Below are positions 1,576-43,499 of a stretch of 64,000 nt of DNA, piece by piece (position 1 is the stretch's first letter; each line of letters starts with the position of its first letter). The stretch spans positions 12,978 through 76,977 of IMG/VR virus record IMGVR_UViG_3300048548_000653; one strand, written 5' to 3'. The notes beneath the pieces were generated by a model. It saw only the letters and a list, made by a program, of their open reading frames with translations. It searched no databases and was not told the origin of the DNA. This DNA comes from a virus. The position numbers and the translations under genes are program-made.

Positions 1576-1929
1576 ATGGATTTAGGCAAGGTAATAGCAG
1601 AGTATGGATTTCCTATTGTTGCAACAATGGGTATGGCCTACTTTATATTCTTTATTTGGAAATGGGTTACAAATGAAATTGACGTAGTTATTGGTCAAGC
1701 AATGGGTACACTAATTAAACTTGTTGACCGTGTGCGTATGCTAGACAATGATCTTATCCGTTTAAACAGTAAACTAAGTATGGTTTTAGAATATCGTGCA
1801 AAACTTAATCCTCAACGTCAAGACGAGTTACAACGTTTAGTTGATGAATACAAAACCCAAAGCAATGATTTTGATTCAGGTGGCAACAAAGAAACTAAAG
1901 AGCCGTTAAAAAAGAGAACGGCAAGGTGA
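1576..1929 (+). CDS. YvrJ-like membrane protein, paralog of 1119..1397
   Basis: EYGFPIVA TM and DRVRMLDNDLIRL align with GFPIAA and NRVQTMNNDLVKI. Confidence 0.55.
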   Translation: MDLGKVIAEYGFPIVATMGMAYFIFFIWKWVTNEIDVVIGQAMGTLIKLVDRVRMLDNDLIRLNSKLSMVLEYRAKLNPQRQDELQRLVDEYKTQSNDFDSGGNKETKEPLKKRTAR

Positions 1930-30106: not shown

Positions 30107-30721
30107 TTATTTACTATCTTCTGAAAGTCGTCCATTAATATACTTTAGTAGTAATCCGTATGCTGGTAAGAAAATAACCAACCCTACGCCAATCTTCAGT
30201 ACTGTTTGTGATCCTGCAATCTCCATCCAGTTTGCTGCCATATACTCATCTGCTGAGTTGTTGAATGCCACCCAAAAGAAAGTGTAACTATCAATAATAT
30301 TGGCTGCTACTGTTGATACAGCTGGTGCTAACCACCAAGCCTTATACTTTTCACGCAAATACTGGAAGACATAAACGTCTAACATTGTTCCAATAGCATA
30401 GGCTGTTGCACTTGCAAAACCAATACGCAGTGCCACTGATTGTGGTGCGCCTTCAAGCATTACAACTGCAATGCTTCCGATGATTGCCAACGGATATGCC
30501 GCTGCAATTGTTGCTCGAGCAATATTCTTACCTAACATTCTAACTGTTAAGTCAGTTGCTAAAACAACTAATGGGAACGTAAATGCTGCCCAAGTTAATT
30601 TGATACCAGCTATTTCTACTGGAATAGCAACTAGTGCATTACTTACTGTGATAACAACTACGTGTAATAACACTAGTTTGAGCAACATACTTCTATCAAT
30701 GTTTTTAAAAATTCCTATCAT
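30107..30721 (-). CDS. yhhQ: queuosine precursor transporter YhhQ (Vut_1)
   Basis: SNALV, TWAAFTFP...TDLTVR, RIGFASATAY, DVYVF, IDSYTFF. Confidence 0.88.
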   Translation of the reverse strand: MIGIFKNIDRSMLLKLVLLHVVVITVSNALVAIPVEIAGIKLTWAAFTFPLVVLATDLTVRMLGKNIARATIAAAYPLAIIGSIAVVMLEGAPQSVALRIGFASATAYAIGTMLDVYVFQYLREKYKAWWLAPAVSTVAANIIDSYTFFWVAFNNSADEYMAANWMEIAGSQTVLKIGVGLVIFLPAYGLLLKYINGRLSEDSK

Positions 30722-30744
30722 ACAATTCTCCCTTGTTTTGGAAT

Positions 30745-31027
30745 GAGGCCCGTTCTGTTGCTAGGTGGAACCCATACCCCGCATACCTAATTAGGCTGCA
30801 ATTGCCATTGCTGGCGCACGATTGTCATTTGCAATTGTGAATGTTGACCAATAACGCAGTCATCCGGTAAACTCCACTTCACTTTCACACCTGTCGATCC
30901 TAGTTCAGCCCCATCATAATTACTCTATGCCGTAAATTTGTAGTTTTTACGCTACAAAGTAATTATGGTGGAGCTGCCGGGTACTGCCCCCGGGTCCAGT
31001 ATGCGTTCACGTTGCTTCAACGTCTAC
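30745..31027 (-). ncRNA. ssrA: circularly permuted two-piece tmRNA
   Basis: piece ending CAGCTCCACCA (30966) precedes GGGGCTGAACTAGGATCGAC (starts 30912); G3-U70 pair; GGCAGTA T-loop; tag ORF 30832..30791 = ANDNRAPAMAIAA*. Confidence 0.93.
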
Positions 31028-31031
31028 AGTC

Positions 31032-31062
31032 TATTTATAACATAGATTTAAGCTTGTGTCAA
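31032..31062 (-). promoter_or_regulatory. composite early/late promoter for tmRNA
   Basis: TTGACA-17-TATAAA overlapping TATAAATA. Confidence 0.7.
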
Positions 31063-39814: not shown

Positions 39815-40699
39815 TTAGCCGTTGATTAAGTTAAACTGATTCTTCAACTGTGCAACTACCGCTTGCCTAGTAATGCCCATCCTTTCAGCTATCTCATTAT
39901 TAGATAGATTTGCGTGATAAAAGTCAAGTAATTGTTTTAATCTTTCTTCTGTCCAACCCTTCCTTTTGTTCATATAGTCACGGTGTTCCTTATTATATTT
40001 CGCTCTTAAAACAGGATCTTTCATACGCTCTCTTCGCTGTTTAGCTCTGTGTATTGGATCACCAGTCAACCCGTGCTTGTAATTAGCATTACCAAATCCG
40101 CTACGATTTTTGCTGTAATTTGCTTTAGTTTCTTCGCTATGACGGAACCCAAGACCGCCATTTAATTTTGCACGTGACGCCACTATTTTTTCAATAGTTT
40201 CTTTTGGTTGCTTTTTACCTAGCAAATGTGGAACTAATTCGCCGCTTGCAAACATACGTTTTTTTGTTTCGCTTTGTCTTTTGTTCATTTCAGCTGTAGG
40301 CTTCCAGCCTTTCCTACGTGTAGCCCACTCGTTTTTCATCCATTGACGTTTAGCTTCTCTTTGTTCCTCTGTCAATTTTCTGCCATACATATGATTATTA
40401 GGTCCTGATTGATCTATGTATCTTGGATCGCCTATTCCAACATTGTAATATCTATTCCAACATCTTTTTTTCCTGTTCTTTAGATATGTGTGCTCTACAA
40501 ATGCTATTTCTTCTTTAGTGCCTGTAAAAATAATTCTACGTCTAAATCCTTGAGGAATGTTATCCTTTGTAAAACTCTCCATCAACGTAGATGAATGAGT
40601 ATAACTATTGTCTGGACTGCCTTGATGCTTTCCTATGTAATACATTTTGTTTTTTGCATCATACCAAATGTAAACAAAGCCGTCATCCGTGTTTTTCAT
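39815..40699 (-). mobile_element. free-standing GIY-YIG (Seg-like) homing endonuclease with NUMOD3-like repeats and C-terminal HTH
   Basis: FVYIWYD..NKMYYIGKHQG; MYGRKLTEEQ, GKKQPKET, RHSEETK; SNNEIAERMGITRQAV. Confidence 0.82.
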
Positions 40700-41366
40700 A
40701 ATACTGCCTGCATCTATTCCACCACTCTTGTTCCCACTCTGCGAACTCGTCTGGCCACAAATCAAACTGCTGATACTCCAAGCCTCTACTGCACATAAAA
40801 ATGTGTCCTTCACGTATGTCTGTGCCGTGTACTTCGTTGTGCCCTAATGCATATGCTGTAAGCTGTAAATAATAATCCTCTACCCATTCAGGCTTTTTGG
40901 GTTTATTGGTTTGCTTAAAATCCATAATACAAGGATTGCCTTTGTATTGTCCTACCAAGTCAGTAGTACCTGCATAAATGTTAGGAACATAAAGGGGTAC
41001 TTCGCTTCCCCATATCTCATCTACGTGTACCATTGCTTCATCACGTATGACACAAGCCATTTGATATGCTTGTTGTGCATAAGGATTACTACCTGCACTT
41101 TCTGTCCACACGCCGTTGTCAACATAGTCTTCAAGATACTTGTGCATACGTGTGCCTACGCCGCTGGCTTCGGTTACAATCTCTTGTGCTTTTTGTTCAC
41201 CTACACGTTTTTTCCACGCAATAAGATGACTCATATCTTTGGTACCGCTAAGAATAGTAGTTACGCTTGCTACTGGTGCACCACCTGGTGCAGCGTAACG
41301 GCGTTTGCCATTTACTTCTACACGTTTTAATTTTTCGTATGTATACTTAGGTTTGATTAATGTCAT
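40683..41366 (-). CDS. PD-(D/E)XK exonuclease (MGME1/YqaJ-like phage exonuclease)
   Basis: SVTTIL, GTRMH, E..YAGTTD...DFKQT, Y.LQLTAY. Confidence 0.85.
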   Translation of the reverse strand: MTLIKPKYTYEKLKRVEVNGKRRYAAPGGAPVASVTTILSGTKDMSHLIAWKKRVGEQKAQEIVTEASGVGTRMHKYLEDYVDNGVWTESAGSNPYAQQAYQMACVIRDEAMVHVDEIWGSEVPLYVPNIYAGTTDLVGQYKGNPCIMDFKQTNKPKKPEWVEDYYLQLTAYALGHNEVHGTDIREGHIFMCSRGLEYQQFDLWPDEFAEWEQEWWNRCRQYYEKHG

Positions 41367-41380
41367 ACGTTATGATAACA

Positions 41381-41677
41381 TTAAAGATCGGATAAGTCAA
41401 CGGCTCGTTTTGCCATTTTTCCTACACTGTCTCCATCAGCACCGCCTTTTGGTGCTTTGTCAACGAAACTTACTTCTTCCTGTGTGTAGTGTCCAATTAG
41501 TCCTTTGATTCTTTCGTCTGCTTGGTAAGCTGCATCAAATGTTTCATAGTTAAACTGTGGAACTTCATTGTTGTCCATCATTTTGTCTAAATCTTCAAAT
41601 GAAATAGACTGGACACCTTCTGACTTCAATAGTCGAAGTAATCGATAAAGATTGTCGCTGTTTACTTCTTCAGTTAC
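41381..41677 (-). CDS. ORF probably expressed as -1 frameshift extension of 41674..42858
   Basis: open from the A9G run; only in-frame start near its 5' end is a TTG (41629) without SD. Confidence 0.55.
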   Translation of the reverse strand, partial: VTEEVNSDNLYRLLRLLKSEGVQSISFEDLDKMMDNNEVPQFNYETFDAAYQADERIKGLIGHYTQEEVSFVDKAPKGGADGDSVGKMAKRAVDLSDL

Positions 41678-42858
41678 TTTTTTTTTGAAAGTGTACGTGC
41701 TAGTTTACGTGAGTCAACACTTTCACTCGGTGCTGCTCTACGATCGCCTCTCATAGCTTTTAATTTTGCAAGTGCTTGTGGATTTAATTTCAATACACCT
41801 GCATCAATCATCATTTTTACAGCCGGATCATCTAGCATAAATTCTGCAGGAACTTTGTTTCCATCTTTATCAAATGTCCAATATTGTTTACCTTTGATAT
41901 TTTGTTTTGGTCCTGAACCAAACTTATTTTGAATACTTTTTTGTAAATTTAGATCTGCAGGATCGTTGCTGTCCATTCCACCAAACTCGTCTAGTTCAAC
42001 ACTTTCACGTGTCTCTCTGCCTGCTGGTTCTTCGCCGCCTGCTGCTGCTGGTGCTGCTGCAAAATCATCATCTGCGGGTGGCACAACACCTGCTGCATCA
42101 TCCATATCAACGGTTGGCTCTAAGCCTGCAGCCATATCGTCGCCGCCCATTGGAGGCTGCATTTCACCTTCGCCTGTCAACATCATAACACCACTACTCA
42201 GTGCGCCTCTAGTTGACTCTAATGAAGCATAAAGTTCGTCCAAGCTTGCTTTGATTGTTTCAACATACTGGTTACTTTGATCTACGCCCATTTCGTCTCT
42301 AACAGCATCAGCAAGATCCAACATTGATTCTGTTTTCATTTCTGCTGTATCTTCCATCCAACCTGTTACTCTGTCAACCATATCCTTAGCTGCCATAACA
42401 ATCTCTGCTTGGTCTTCTGCACCTTCACGTACAACAGATTCTTTTGCTTCTGCATCTGCTTTTTTGTTACCAGCATCGACCATTGCTTTGATACCTTTAG
42501 ACTTTTTGTCTTTGGCTGCTTTTTTCATTGGCTCTTTTTTGTCGCCATCTTTATCCAAATCAAGGAAATCTGGCTTTGCACCTTCTAGCATATCATCATC
42601 AATGTCACCACGTTCACTAATTTCAGCATTTAACACATCTAAAAATAATTTAGATTTTTGATACTCATCGCTTTCAACTACATTACTAAAACTTTCGTTC
42701 ATTTCGATTTGACTTAGTCTTGTTCTAAGTTTGTTACGAGCATTATGTAATTGTGCTAGTGTAAAAGATTCTAATGCAATGCGTTTTCCGAAACGTTTTG
42801 CAAGGCTTTCGTTTAATTTTTTTGCTGTTACTGGTTTAGCGAACTCTGAAATATTCAT
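41674..42858 (-). CDS. acidic phage late protein (probable head/scaffold-associated)
   Basis: late promoter and RBS; acidic, low-complexity; KPDFLDLDKDGDKKEPMKKA; ends SKKK. Confidence 0.6.
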   Translation of the reverse strand: MNISEFAKPVTAKKLNESLAKRFGKRIALESFTLAQLHNARNKLRTRLSQIEMNESFSNVVESDEYQKSKLFLDVLNAEISERGDIDDDMLEGAKPDFLDLDKDGDKKEPMKKAAKDKKSKGIKAMVDAGNKKADAEAKESVVREGAEDQAEIVMAAKDMVDRVTGWMEDTAEMKTESMLDLADAVRDEMGVDQSNQYVETIKASLDELYASLESTRGALSSGVMMLTGEGEMQPPMGGDDMAAGLEPTVDMDDAAGVVPPADDDFAAAPAAAGGEEPAGRETRESVELDEFGGMDSNDPADLNLQKSIQNKFGSGPKQNIKGKQYWTFDKDGNKVPAEFMLDDPAVKMMIDAGVLKLNPQALAKLKAMRGDRRAAPSESVDSRKLARTLSKKK

Positions 42859-42892
42859 TGGTGATTTCCTATGTTATTAAAAGTATTTATCT

Positions 42893-43306
42893 CTAGTAAA
42901 AGATTATTTGTTCTAATTTATTATTAATTGCACGTAGTTCGTCGTATGCAACACTTAATCTAATATCTAGCACATCTTTTTTGTGGTCATCTTTAGTTTT
43001 ATCTATTGTATGTTGATAAAATCTTGCATCTAATTCGTGTTTTTGTATTTTTTGATCTAAAACTAGGATGTAATTTATCTTTTCATTTTCATTATATAAT
43101 TTTGCTATTGCAAGAGCACTATGCTTACTATAAACTGATCCTATTTGTTCTTGTTTTTTACTATCAAATAAAATAAAGCTTTTGTCTTTTAGTTGGCGTA
43201 TAACAACAGGTCCAATGCGTATAGAGTTACCTACCTTTACAGGCAAAGGATGTTTCTTCACTCCACAAGAAATGAGAGTTTTTAATTCATTAATTAGATG
43301 CTGCAT
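42893..43306 (-). CDS. hypothetical protein
   Basis: 137-aa ORF in late operon. Confidence 0.55.
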   Translation of the reverse strand: MQHLINELKTLISCGVKKHPLPVKVGNSIRIGPVVIRQLKDKSFILFDSKKQEQIGSVYSKHSALAIAKLYNENEKINYILVLDQKIQKHELDARFYQHTIDKTKDDHKKDVLDIRLSVAYDELRAINNKLEQIIFY

Positions 43307-43499
43307 TATTAACCAGATACTGCTTTCCTTGATATAAGACTTTTTTAATTATATCTTTTCTTATCAAATTGTCAAGAACATATTGCTGTCTTTCTGTAAA
43401 TTCTTCGTAATCACATAATGTTTCCATTTTTGCAAGTAATTTCTTTTCCTCTAAAGAAATTTGTACTCTAAGTTCATTAGTGATTTGTTTAAAATTCAT
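43290..43499 (-). CDS. hypothetical protein (winged-helix-like)
   Basis: 69-aa ORF; TERQQYVLDNLIRKD. Confidence 0.5.
   Translation of the reverse strand: MNFKQITNELRVQISLEEKKLLAKMETLCDYEEFTERQQYVLDNLIRKDIIKKVLYQGKQYLVNNAASN

What the first reader, a model, noticed from the sequence alone, without database searches (positions are those of the whole stretch)
41381..41700. Probable programmed -1 frameshift (A AAA AAG) extending a late structural protein
Seen: 41674..42858 ends TCA AAA AAA AAG TAA (A9G at 41686-41677). The -1 frame is closed just upstream and then open for 98 codons (VTEEVNSDNLYRLLRLLKSEG...DLSDL), with only an SD-less TTG near its 5' end. Eight nt downstream, GAAGTAA can pair with TTACTTC. 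Established: A AAA AAG is the strongest bacterial -1 slip site (dnaX), and A9 runs also permit transcriptional slippage. Inference: two isoforms at a fixed ratio in a gene that does not look like the classic tail-chaperone G/GT.
Basis: partly seen in the sequence, partly recalled or inferred. Interest (0 to 1): 0.75.

Follow-up and report, generated by a model that had tools for sequence, protein, structure and literature searches.

The report
Conserved -1 frameshift in phage virion gene
A run of nine A's at the end of a virion-protein gene of an uncultured marine giant phage is a conserved slip site that lets some copies of the protein gain a 98-residue winged-helix-like domain, a classical recoding trick in a gene family where I found no earlier report of it.

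Summary
The minus-strand ORF 41674..42858 (394 aa) ends TCA AAA AAA AAG TAA. From the G at 41677, a 98-codon -1 frame runs to 41381.

It is not an assembly error. The same layout occurs in about 73 of 83 related IMG/VR loci (50-80% protein identity). These share an in-frame A_AAA_AAN heptamer, nearly always within A9, a 0-frame stop 0-22 nt later, and a homologous 98-129 codon -1 ORF. That ORF has no conserved start codon. The junction peptide KKK|V-T-E is conserved.

Relatives that gave the downstream domain its own ATG have lost the A-run but keep the ..LSSKK peptide.

The gene is a remote homologue of MS-verified virion proteins of jumbo myophages (PA5oct gp247, CBB gp298). In those phages the next gene is a separate small virion protein, and the same exonuclease-RNR synteny follows. 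The extension models as a winged-helix-like domain plus a tail ending in an invariant MA(K)RA motif.

The mechanism is unresolved. I estimate ribosomal -1 frameshifting at about 50%, RNA-polymerase slippage on A9 at about 35%, and both contributing at about 15%.

This is a new member of a known kind. The scan has found comparable A/T-run recoding sites in other marine phages. No published report of this one was found.

The parts
41674..42858 (-). 0-frame gene (394 aa, P0001). It has an N-terminal helical domain, a variable linker, a long helical hairpin, an acidic disordered region, a window-specific insert and the C-terminal ..RKLARTLSKKK.
   Evidence: alignment A1; AF2 model; remote homology to PA5oct gp247 (hhalign 95.9%, E 5.5e-9) and CBB gp298 (92%, E 6e-7), both annotated virion proteins.
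41677..41686 (-). Slip site A9G, read TC[A AAA AAA AAG]. It contains the in-frame heptamer A_AAA_AAG and is followed directly by the TAA stop (41674-41676).
   Evidence: It is the only run of 9 or more in the window. A run of this kind (mostly A9G, with A6G, A8G, A9C and A10 variants) is conserved in about 73 of 83 related loci. Other KKK triplets in these genes avoid A-runs.
41381..41677 (-). -1 frame extension (98 codons plus stop, P0002). It models as a winged-helix-like domain (res 7-71), a disordered linker and a conserved C-terminal MAKRA motif.
   Evidence: alignment A2 of 54 relatives; AF2 topology H-b-H-H-b-b and Foldseek top hits all winged-helix domains at weak E; 617 relatives in the HMM search.
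41635..41668 (-). Weak downstream hairpin GAAGTAA/TTACTTC, starting 9 nt after the G. It is a possible frameshift stimulator.
   Evidence: -5.2 kcal/mol, not above synonymous controls here. Family-wide, the 51 nt after the site are more structured than controls (z -1.3; 35% of loci at rank <=0.05, against 13-17% further into the ORF).
41687..41724 (-). Possible nascent-RNA hairpin GAAAGUGU-22 nt-ACACUUUC, ending directly at the A-run.
   Evidence: Sequence. Pairing probability of the last 6 nt is 0.74 against 0.18 in synonymous controls, rank 0.05. It is not significant family-wide. One subfamily has a different hairpin with compensatory changes 1-2 nt before the run.
42865..42891 (-). Conserved promoter-like motif GATAAATA (42891-42884) and Shine-Dalgarno AGGAAA (42870-42865) in front of the ATG.
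   Evidence: xATAAATA(A)CTATAAC lies about 25-35 nt upstream of the start in nearly all unique relatives. It is one base off the T4 late-promoter consensus TATAAATA (own knowledge).

Best explanation
The gene 41674..42858 encodes a virion (probably head-interior or core) protein of an uncultured marine jumbo myophage related to the Rak2/PA5oct group. It carries a programmed -1 recoding site at its last four codons, TCA AAA AAA AAG.

Most translation stops at the TAA and gives the 394-aa protein. A fraction of products continues in the -1 frame and gives a 492-aa protein, ...LSKKK-VTEEVNSDNLYR...DLSDL. This longer form carries an extra winged-helix-like domain and a conserved C-terminal MAKRA tail.

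The shift is made either by the ribosome or by RNA polymerase. In the ribosomal route, tandem tRNA-Lys slip on A_AAA_AAG, helped in many relatives by a hairpin 4-9 nt downstream. In the polymerase route, one extra A is added on the A9 run. My split is ribosomal about 50%, polymerase about 35%, both comparable about 15%.

Shown here: the site, its conservation, the lack of an independent start, and the homology of the downstream ORF to separately encoded proteins in relatives.

Inferred: that a fusion product is made, its proportion, and its role.
For: (1) The same architecture occurs in about 73 of 83 IMG/VR loci at 50-80% protein identity. Every one needs a -1 shift, never +1.

(2) The A-run is held at synonymous sites. 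The junction codons are AAA AAA AAG in about 90% of unique loci. Of 50 other KKK triplets in the same genes, only 4 are AAA AAA AAG and 1 is AAA AAA AAA. The preceding Ser codon is TCA in about 85% of loci, against 35% background.

(3) The -1 ORF is protein-coding from the first codon after the slip. The junction K-K-K|V-(T/N/I/S)-E is conserved and E3 is at least 90% invariant. 34 of 54 unique loci have no ATG, GTG or TTG in that frame up to 16 codons past the slip, and the rest have them at scattered positions.

(4) In 8 loci the downstream domain has its own ATG (TAATG overlap, or SD plus ATG). There the A-run is gone, although L049 still ends ..LSSKK and L044/L048 keep a related Ser/Lys-rich end (AGT AAG AAG and similar codons). 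These forms arose at least twice inside frameshift clades.

(5) One natural in-frame fusion exists (P0155, 376 aa..SPKKKISKSLIE..).

(6) A9 is not an assembly error. Independent assemblies and contigs from a DNA run and an RNA library bridge it without an indel.

(7) Structural role: hhalign links the family to PA5oct gp247 (95.9%) and CBB gp298 (92%). Both are virion proteins followed by a separate 104-111-aa virion protein, then exonuclease and RNR, as in this window.

(8) A_AAA_AAG is the most shift-prone bacterial heptamer, and runs of 9 A/T slip efficiently in bacterial RNAP (PMC5009743).
Against: - No product has been observed. Only assembled contigs were available, so minority A10 transcripts or a junction peptide could not be seen.
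- In this window the downstream hairpin is weak and there is no SD-like element upstream, so efficient ribosomal shifting is not assured.
- The heptamer occurs in slip phase in six other genes of the window. If all of those are tolerated, the heptamer alone may not be very shifty in this host.
- The host and its tRNA-Lys set are unknown.
- Homology of the extension to PA5oct gp246 and CBB gp299 is not significant by hhalign. It rests on position, size and a C-terminal V..MA..A resemblance.
- The winged-helix assignment rests on a medium-confidence model (pLDDT 69) and weak Foldseek E-values (0.06-0.6).
Confidence: 0.85

Rival explanations
1. The shift is mainly transcriptional. The host RNA polymerase, modified by the phage, stutters on the A9 tract and adds one A to a share of the mRNAs. 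Ordinary translation of those mRNAs gives the long protein. This is a variant of the main explanation, not exclusive with it.
For: - Run length is conserved beyond what the heptamer needs. TCA precedes the run in about 85% of loci, against 35% background.
- Loci whose Ser codon is TCG or TCT restore nine A's with AAA AAA AAA G (L029, L061, L056). A10 variants (L054, L076) and an A9C variant without the G (L078) also exist.
- Nine A/T is the length at which bacterial RNAP slips efficiently, as in T. thermophilus dnaX and Shigella spa13 (PMC5009743).
- A hairpin abuts the run in the window (rank 0.05). One subfamily has a hairpin with compensatory changes, as in the Roseiflexus IS case.
Against: - L081 keeps only GGA AAA AAG (six A's). 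Three loci have A8G. Several loci carry a second exact in-frame A_AAA_AAG of 6-7 A's just before the stop.
- The excess RNA structure lies downstream at 4-9 nt spacing, as expected for a ribosomal stimulator. The upstream-hairpin signal is no higher than the baseline bias of the test.
- The one RNA-library contig across the run shows A9. That is uninformative about minor species.
Confidence: 0.35
2. Sequencing or assembly error: the true genome has A10 and one fused 492-aa ORF.
For: Homopolymers are error-prone. One fused relative (P0155) exists.
Against: More than 50 distinct assemblies from many samples all need a -1 shift. Loci with A8 or A10 have compensating frames, so the shift is still needed. 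DNA contigs of independent runs bridge A9 without an indel. The 0-frame stop is conserved right after the run.
Confidence: 0.02
3. The downstream ORF is an independent gene. It is started by an unconventional or coupled initiation (termination-reinitiation at the TAA), and no fusion protein is made.
For: In about 10% of relatives and in cultured jumbo phages the domain is a separate gene, so it can work as a free protein. The stop and the start of the -1 ORF overlap (AAG TAA / G TAA).
Against: No start codon is conserved, and 34 of 54 loci have none within reach. Protein conservation begins at the very first -1 codon after the run. This model does not explain the strict synonymous conservation of the A-run or its loss exactly where an ATG appears.
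Confidence: 0.05
4. DNA-level phase variation: the A tract changes length during replication, so the population holds on and off alleles.
For: Long homopolymers mutate readily. One in-frame allele (P0155) was found among 617 cluster representatives.
Against: In-frame alleles are almost absent among hundreds of assemblies. Near-identical loci all carry the same length. No indel variant appears in the laid contigs.
Confidence: 0.03

Closest known systems
E. coli dnaX tau/gamma programmed -1 ribosomal frameshift (A_AAA_AAG)
   Same: It has the identical in-frame heptamer read by tRNA-Lys. Many relatives have a hairpin a few nt downstream, and some have an SD-like AGG(T/A) about 14 nt upstream. 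Two products share one N-terminal part.
   Different: In dnaX the shift truncates the protein (gamma). Here it extends the protein by a folded domain. The 0-frame stop directly follows the heptamer. The run is A9, not A6. The stimulators are weak or absent in this window.
Thermus thermophilus dnaX and Shigella spa13/mxiE programmed transcriptional slippage
   Same: It has a conserved run of nine A/T. In spa13 and mxiE, slippage joins two overlapping frames to give a C-terminally extended protein (PMC5009743).
   Different: No mRNA heterogeneity has been shown here. Some relatives keep only 6-8 A's, which is short for RNAP slippage.
Phage lambda G/GT and the conserved tail-assembly-chaperone frameshift of long-tailed phages
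   Same: It is a phage late gene in which a -1 shift near the end of the ORF adds a C-terminal domain to a minority of the chains. The arrangement is conserved while the sequence diverges.
   Different: The genomic position differs: it lies between small virion-protein genes and an exonuclease/RNR block, not between tail tube and tape measure. The proteins are unrelated and the slip sequence is different.
T7 gene 10A/10B capsid protein frameshift
   Same: A -1 shift at the end of a virion-protein gene gives a minor, longer structural isoform.
   Different: The T7 extension is short and has no independent-gene counterpart. Here the extension is a domain that other phages encode as a separate gene.
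PA5oct gp247+gp246 and CBB gp298+gp299 (adjacent virion-protein genes of jumbo myophages)
   Same: They share remote homology of the upstream protein, and the same gene order continues through the exonuclease to RNR. Both products were detected in or annotated as virion proteins.
   Different: In those phages there are two ordinary genes with their own starts, no A-run and no frameshift.

Membership tests
Programmed -1 ribosomal frameshift, dnaX/IS type | X_XXY_YYZ heptamer in the 0 frame | tested here: met
   TC[A AAA AAG] is in phase. An in-frame A_AAA_AAN is present in all 54 unique frameshift-class loci.
Programmed -1 ribosomal frameshift, dnaX/IS type | Conserved -1 ORF without its own initiation signal, coding from the slip site onward | tested here: met
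Programmed -1 ribosomal frameshift, dnaX/IS type | Stimulatory RNA structure 5-9 nt downstream and/or SD-like element 10-14 nt upstream | tested here: inconclusive
   The window's hairpin is weak and there is no SD. Family-wide there is excess downstream structure (z -1.3 against a baseline of -0.4). SD-like 4-mers lie within 5-15 nt upstream of the heptamer, mostly at 14 nt, in 20 of 54 loci, against 19% background.
Programmed -1 ribosomal frameshift, dnaX/IS type | Trans-frame protein actually made from unedited mRNA | not testable with these tools
   This needs proteomics or a reporter together with RNA sequencing.
Programmed transcriptional slippage | Homopolymer of about 9 or more A/T, conserved in length | tested here: met
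   The window has A9. 46 of 54 unique loci have A9-A10, three have A8 and one has A6. TCA is enriched before the run.
Programmed transcriptional slippage | Heterogeneous mRNA population (A10 beside A9) from a homogeneous DNA template | tested here: inconclusive
   Only contigs were available. The RNA-library contig X15 shows A9, and minor variants are invisible.
Tail assembly chaperone G/GT | Location between the major tail/tube gene and the tape measure gene | tested here: not met
   The neighbours are small virion-protein-like ORFs upstream and a PD-(D/E)XK exonuclease, a homing-endonuclease-like ORF, a pectate-lyase-like protein and RNR downstream.
T4-type prohead core / internal head proteins | Presence in virions | not testable with these tools
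   The evidence is by homology only. PA5oct gp247/gp246 are annotated ESI-MS/MS structural proteins and CBB gp298/gp299 are annotated virion structural proteins.
T4-type prohead core / internal head proteins | Prohead-protease cleavage motifs (hydrophobic-x-Glu) at propeptide or module borders | tested here: inconclusive
   [LIVM]-x-E is invariant at residues 15-17 and conserved at 80-82, 143-145 and directly after the slip in 54 of 54 loci. The motif is short, and no cleavage data and no protease gene exist in this 77-kb fragment (where the control search also failed to ring).

The most novel reading that the evidence does not exclude
The frameshift may work as a loading device for a head cargo protein. 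On this reading, the winged-helix domain is carried into the prohead as a passenger on a fixed fraction of a core or scaffold-like protein. The prohead protease then cuts it free at the V-T-E motif that directly follows the slip site.

In relatives the same domain is a free gene that starts with a short MK(I/V)x(D/E)(I/L)..E leader resembling a T4 capsid-targeting sequence. Recoding would thus replace a targeting peptide and set the copy number of a DNA-binding internal protein.
Probability: 0.25. Interest if true: 0.7.

Novelty: new member of a known kind. Interest (0 to 1): 0.5.

Why it matters
Gene callers split or truncate this gene pair in hundreds of ocean phage contigs. Most database entries for the downstream ORF start at an internal Met, so an abundant virion protein isoform is missing from annotation.

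The family offers a natural experiment. It contains the same two modules joined by a frameshift, encoded as separate genes (at least two independent reversions), and once fused in frame. It also shows run-length variants (A6G, A8G, A9G, A9C, A10). Together these could separate ribosomal from polymerase slippage in a non-model host.

It adds a virion protein of jumbo-phage relatives to the short list of phage structural genes, outside the tail chaperone, that use recoding.

Tried and rejected
- **Phage database searches.** Megablast and tblastn of both ORFs against 50,697 phage records gave no match at E <= 1e-3. Only a relaxed search with the central domain found jumbo phages.
- **Family libraries.** Pfam gave nothing for either protein. 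PHROGs gave only a partial 'virion structural protein' hit.
- **Fused forms.** A word-based search for longer fused forms of the extension found none.
- **The look-up of encoding contigs was closed.** The DNA behind P0155 and other database proteins could not be inspected.
- **Fold searches.** The upstream protein gave only generic coiled-coil matches.
- **Read-level test of slippage.** All 24 runs offered are kept as contigs, so minority A10 could not be assessed. RNA-run shares of 0.07-0.18 are small and say nothing about expression level.
- **Upstream hairpin as a family-wide stimulator.** Rejected as unproven: 17% of loci reach rank <= 0.05, the same as the baseline bias of the test.
- **T4 gp23 and gp21 family searches in the 77-kb record.** They found nothing, and the control genomes did not ring either, so this is uninformative.
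- **Atu_ph07 gp044/gp043, PA5oct gp246 and CBB gp299 against the extension profile.** None was significant.
- **Pelagimyophage idea.** Considered and dropped. The nearest cultured relatives of the exonuclease and the virion protein are Rak2/PA5oct-type jumbo phages.
- **Literature.** Six of seven literature searches bore on prior reports and found none for this site. The library is incomplete.
Full report
**1. Observation**

On the minus strand the sequence reads ...CTT TCA AAA AAA AAG TAA CTG AAG AAG TAA ACA....

- ORF 41674..42858 encodes 394 aa and ends ..ARTLSKKK*.
- The nine A's lie at 41686-41678 and the G at 41677.
- Read from that G, the -1 frame gives VTEEVNSDNLYRLLRLLKSEGVQSISFEDLDKMMDNNEVPQF...MAKRAVDLSDL*, 98 codons, with its stop at 41381-41383.
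- That frame is closed 9 codons upstream of the slip.
- Its first start-like codon is a TTG 16 codons in.
- This is the only homopolymer of nine or more in the 64-kb window.

The heptamer AAAAAAG alone is frequent: 49 copies against 33 +/- 6 in shuffles. It stands in slip phase in seven called genes. This one has by far the longest -1 continuation.

**2. Not an artefact**

Four IMG/VR contigs with 81-93% identical extension ORFs carry exactly CTT TCA AAA AAA AAG TA(A/G). The flanking codons differ. For example, L001 reads GTA GAT GAA GCT, giving V-D-E-A in the -1 frame.

At least 14 public DNA runs from 13 studies hold 98% or more of the sampled words of the 2.6-kb stretch. A 1423-nt DNA contig (X10, depth 14) and a 151-nt contig of an oligo-dT RNA library (X15) cross the run with no gap. 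All runs were available only as contigs, so minor length variants cannot be seen.

**3. Family survey**

A pattern search with the 394-aa protein found 539 or more related IMG/VR stretches, and 80 were kept. I scripted the stop context for all loci.

Of 83 loci in which the ORF end is present, about 73 share these features:
- an A-run at or near the ORF end;
- a 0-frame stop 0-22 nt after it;
- a 98-129 codon open -1 frame.

There are 64 different downstream proteins among these loci, and all are homologous (alignment A2).

Site types among the 54 unique frameshift-class loci:
- TCA AAA AAA AAG in the large majority;
- TCT AAA AAA AAG (A8G) in L017, L043 and L073;
- TC(G/T) AAA AAA AAA G (A9 in the other phase) in L029, L061 and L056;
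- TCA AAA AAA AAA T (A10) in L054 and L076;
- A9C in L078;
- GGA AAA AAG (A6G) in L081.

Several loci (L021, L026, L031-35, L038) carry a second exact in-frame A_AAA_AAG just before the stop. Every variant still needs a -1 shift.

**4. Signatures of selection on the site**

- Elsewhere in these genes, Lys is AAA 73% and AAG 27%. Of 50 other KKK triplets, only four are AAA AAA AAG and one is AAA AAA AAA, so long A-runs are avoided. At the junction AAA AAA AAG is nearly universal.
- The Ser codon before the run is TCA in about 85% of loci, against 35% elsewhere.
- The protein encoded in the -1 frame is conserved from its first codon. The junction reads K-K-K | V-(T/N/I/S/L)-E, and the Glu is at least 90% invariant.
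- 34 of 54 unique loci have no ATG, GTG or TTG in that frame from the upstream stop to 16 codons past the slip. Where one exists its position varies.

**5. The natural control**

Eight loci have no frameshift.
- In L022, L036, L039 and L080 the upstream ORF ends ..GRPAR TAA and the next gene starts at the overlapping TAATG (MKISDIINEG...).
- In L044/45, L048 and L049 an SD and ATG follow the stop (MK(I/V)FELYE..., MKVSEILKE...).

These proteins align with the extension. L049's upstream protein still ends ..RRLGTILSSKK, but with TCT AGT AAG AAG. L044 and L048 use AGT AAG .. AAA/AAG. So when the downstream domain has its own start, the A-run disappears.

A quick maximum-likelihood tree of the upstream protein places the two separate-gene groups inside well-supported frameshift clades. 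L022+L080 lie beside L005 within the window's clade, and L044/48/49 lie beside L047/L071. This means at least two origins (midpoint root, SH-aLRT only).

An exhaustive profile search with A2 over 1.84 billion representatives found 617 relatives.
- Nearly all are 65-135 aa. Many begin at the conserved internal Met, which is the typical truncated gene call.
- One is an in-frame fusion of 376 aa (P0155, ..RESVQRRSPKKKISKSLIEND..).
- A few carry the domain at the N-terminus of longer proteins.

**6. What the protein is**

Pfam finds nothing. PHROGs gives a partial hit to phrog_14154, 'virion structural protein' (E 1e-12).

The AlphaFold model built with alignment A1 has mean pLDDT 68. It shows:
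- a confident N-terminal helical domain (1-90);
- a disordered linker;
- a long helical hairpin (123-228, pLDDT about 90);
- an acidic disordered stretch (239-299).

Foldseek gives only generic coiled coils.

A relaxed tblastn with the central domain hits only jumbo myophages: Atu_ph07, Phosso, PA5oct and the Asteriusvirus group. The hits fall under genes annotated as virion or structural proteins.

Profile comparison supports this:
- PA5oct gp247 (395 aa, 'ESI-MS/MS'): probability 95.9%, E 5.5e-9;
- CBB gp298 (214 aa, virion structural protein): probability 92%, E 6e-7.

Synteny agrees. In PA5oct the order is a run of small MS-identified structural proteins, gp247, gp246 (104 aa, structural, own GTG directly after the TAA), gp245, exonuclease gp244, gp243, gp242 and RNR. 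In CBB it is gp298, gp299 (111 aa, virion protein), exonuclease, and then RNR further on. In the window it is small ORFs, P0001, the extension, a PD-(D/E)XK exonuclease (phrog_298, E 4e-51), a homing-endonuclease-like ORF, a pectate-lyase-like protein, and then RNR alpha and beta.

The exonuclease's best cultured matches are Rak2-type jumbo phages at 44-45% identity. The record is a 77-kb fragment that CheckV rates 24% complete. Cluster members sit on contigs of up to 383 kb. So this is an uncultured marine relative of the jumbo myophages.

A conserved xATAAATA(A)CTATAAC motif lies 25-35 nt before the start codon in nearly all relatives. It is one base from the T4 late-promoter consensus (own knowledge). 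'Late structural protein' is therefore reasonable but indirect.

**7. The extension**

AlphaFold with A2 gives helix-strand-helix-helix-strand-strand for residues 7-71 (pLDDT 70-85), then a disordered tail. All top Foldseek matches are winged-helix domains (MCM4 WHD, PadR/LmrR, Rpa2 WH, TFIIE), but at weak E-values of 0.06-0.6. The last residues carry the only invariant positions of the family, M-A-(K)-R-A.

Similarity to PA5oct gp246 and CBB gp299 is not significant. They share position, size, an MKIxD(I/L) start with the marine stand-alone forms, and a C-terminal V..MA..A.

**8. Ribosome or polymerase?**

For the ribosome:
- the in-frame heptamer is kept in every locus;
- L081 keeps nothing but the heptamer;
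- A8G variants and the second A6-7G sites exist;
- the 51 nt after the site are more structured than synonymous recodings. Mean z is -1.2 to -1.3, and 35-37% of loci reach rank <= 0.05. Further into the same ORF, z is -0.35 to -0.5 and 13-17% of loci reach that rank. In many loci the hairpins begin 4-10 nt after the G.

For the polymerase:
- nine A's are kept although six suffice for the heptamer;
- TCA is enriched before the run;
- loci with TCG or TCT restore A9 with a third AAA;
- A10 and A9C variants exist;
- nine is the length at which bacterial RNAP slips efficiently (PMC5009743).

A hairpin abutting the run (GAAAGUGU-22 nt-ACACUUUC) is present in the window (rank 0.05). One subfamily has a different hairpin with compensatory changes. 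Family-wide, however, the signal equals the baseline bias of the test.

SD-like 4-mers lie within 5-15 nt upstream of the heptamer, mostly at 14 nt, in 20 of 54 loci (background 19%), but not in the window. No tRNA genes are in the window.

I cannot separate the two mechanisms, and they may act together.

**9. A functional lead**

This part is inference. All 54 extensions begin with a hydrophobic-x-Glu motif, mostly V-T-E immediately after KKK. The upstream family has such motifs at 15-17 (L-N-E, invariant), 80-82 and 143-145, which are the borders of its folded parts. The aligned positions in PA5oct and CBB read L-N-E.

Prohead proteases of T4 (L/I-x-E, own knowledge) and of giant phages (A-x-E, S-x-E; PMC5694885) cut after such motifs. 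T4 internal proteins are loaded through a short N-terminal targeting sequence that is then removed (PMC3012670, PMC5694885). The stand-alone forms of the extension begin with a short leader of that look.

The frameshift may therefore load a set fraction of a DNA-binding cargo domain into the head on the back of a core protein, to be cut free later. No cleavage data exist. No protease gene lies on this fragment, and the search for it was uninformative.

**10. Comparison and novelty**

The mechanism is of a known kind: the dnaX-type heptamer or Thermus/Shigella-type slippage. The logic resembles lambda G/GT and T7 10A/10B. The gene is none of these by position or sequence.

I found no report of this site in the searchable literature. 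Cultured relatives have two ordinary genes.

Earlier notes of this scan describe comparable A- or T-run recoding sites in other marine phage genes. None matched this sequence. The same stretch was noted once more from an overlapping window as 'prohead-core-like'.

Verdict: a real, conserved recoding site and a new member of a known kind.

Noticed in passing
window 41710-41994 (-): About 95 residues of the 394-aa protein (about 289-383, ELDEFGGMDSNDPADL...RGDRRAAPSE) are absent from all 49 aligned relatives. The insert is flanked by a repeated (R/S)ESV(E/D) peptide and models as a small, moderately confident alpha/beta unit (pLDDT about 70-76).
   Followed up: partly
window 42884-42891 (-) and the same place in L001-L084: A strongly conserved xATAAATA(A)CTATAAC motif lies 25-35 nt upstream of the start codon in nearly all relatives. 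It is a likely late-type promoter one base off TATAAATA. Exact TATAAATA occurs 10 times in the window.
   Followed up: partly
window 43348-43375 (-): A perfect sigma-70 consensus (TTGACA-16 nt-TATAAT, 12 of 12) lies in front of the 137-aa ORF 42893..43306. A second good match with an extended -10 (41372-41400) lies in front of the exonuclease gene.
   Followed up: no
window 1908-1914 (+), ORF 1576..1929: A second in-frame A_AAA_AAG sits seven codons before the end of a 117-aa ORF, with a 45-codon open -1 frame behind it. It is a possible further recoding site.
   Followed up: no
window 42490-42560 (-), and alignment A1 columns 100-330: The linker between the two conserved domains is hypervariable. 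Many relatives carry KPDFLDLDKDGDKKEPMKKA, a DxDxDG-like motif also hit by phrog_24078. Others carry Cys-rich, zinc-finger-like inserts (L043, L071, L081) or long Lys/Glu-rich inserts (L037).
   Followed up: no
window 39815-40813 (-): A homing-endonuclease/HTH-like ORF (phrog_314) follows the exonuclease and overlaps its end by about 130 nt if the GTG start is used. It was not seen at this place in the relatives whose downstream ORFs were listed (e.g. L001, L003).
   Followed up: no
L001 3993-4955 (+): A close relative carries a glyceraldehyde-3-phosphate-dehydrogenase-like gene directly after the exonuclease. It is a possible auxiliary metabolic gene.
   Followed up: no
L055, L072, L075 (about 37-51 nt upstream of the main site): These loci have two A9 runs close together. 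At the upstream run the -1 frame is closed, so a slip there would truncate the protein.
   Followed up: no
P0044 (463 aa), P0061 (771 aa), P0040 (261 aa): In some database relatives the winged-helix-like domain is the N-terminus of a much longer protein. In P0044 it is followed by Gly/Ala-rich hydrophobic segments.
   Followed up: no
window 30700-31059 (-): ARAGORN calls a permuted (two-piece) tmRNA with tag ANDNRAPAMAIAA. This agrees with earlier notes and points to an alphaproteobacterial host.
   Followed up: partly
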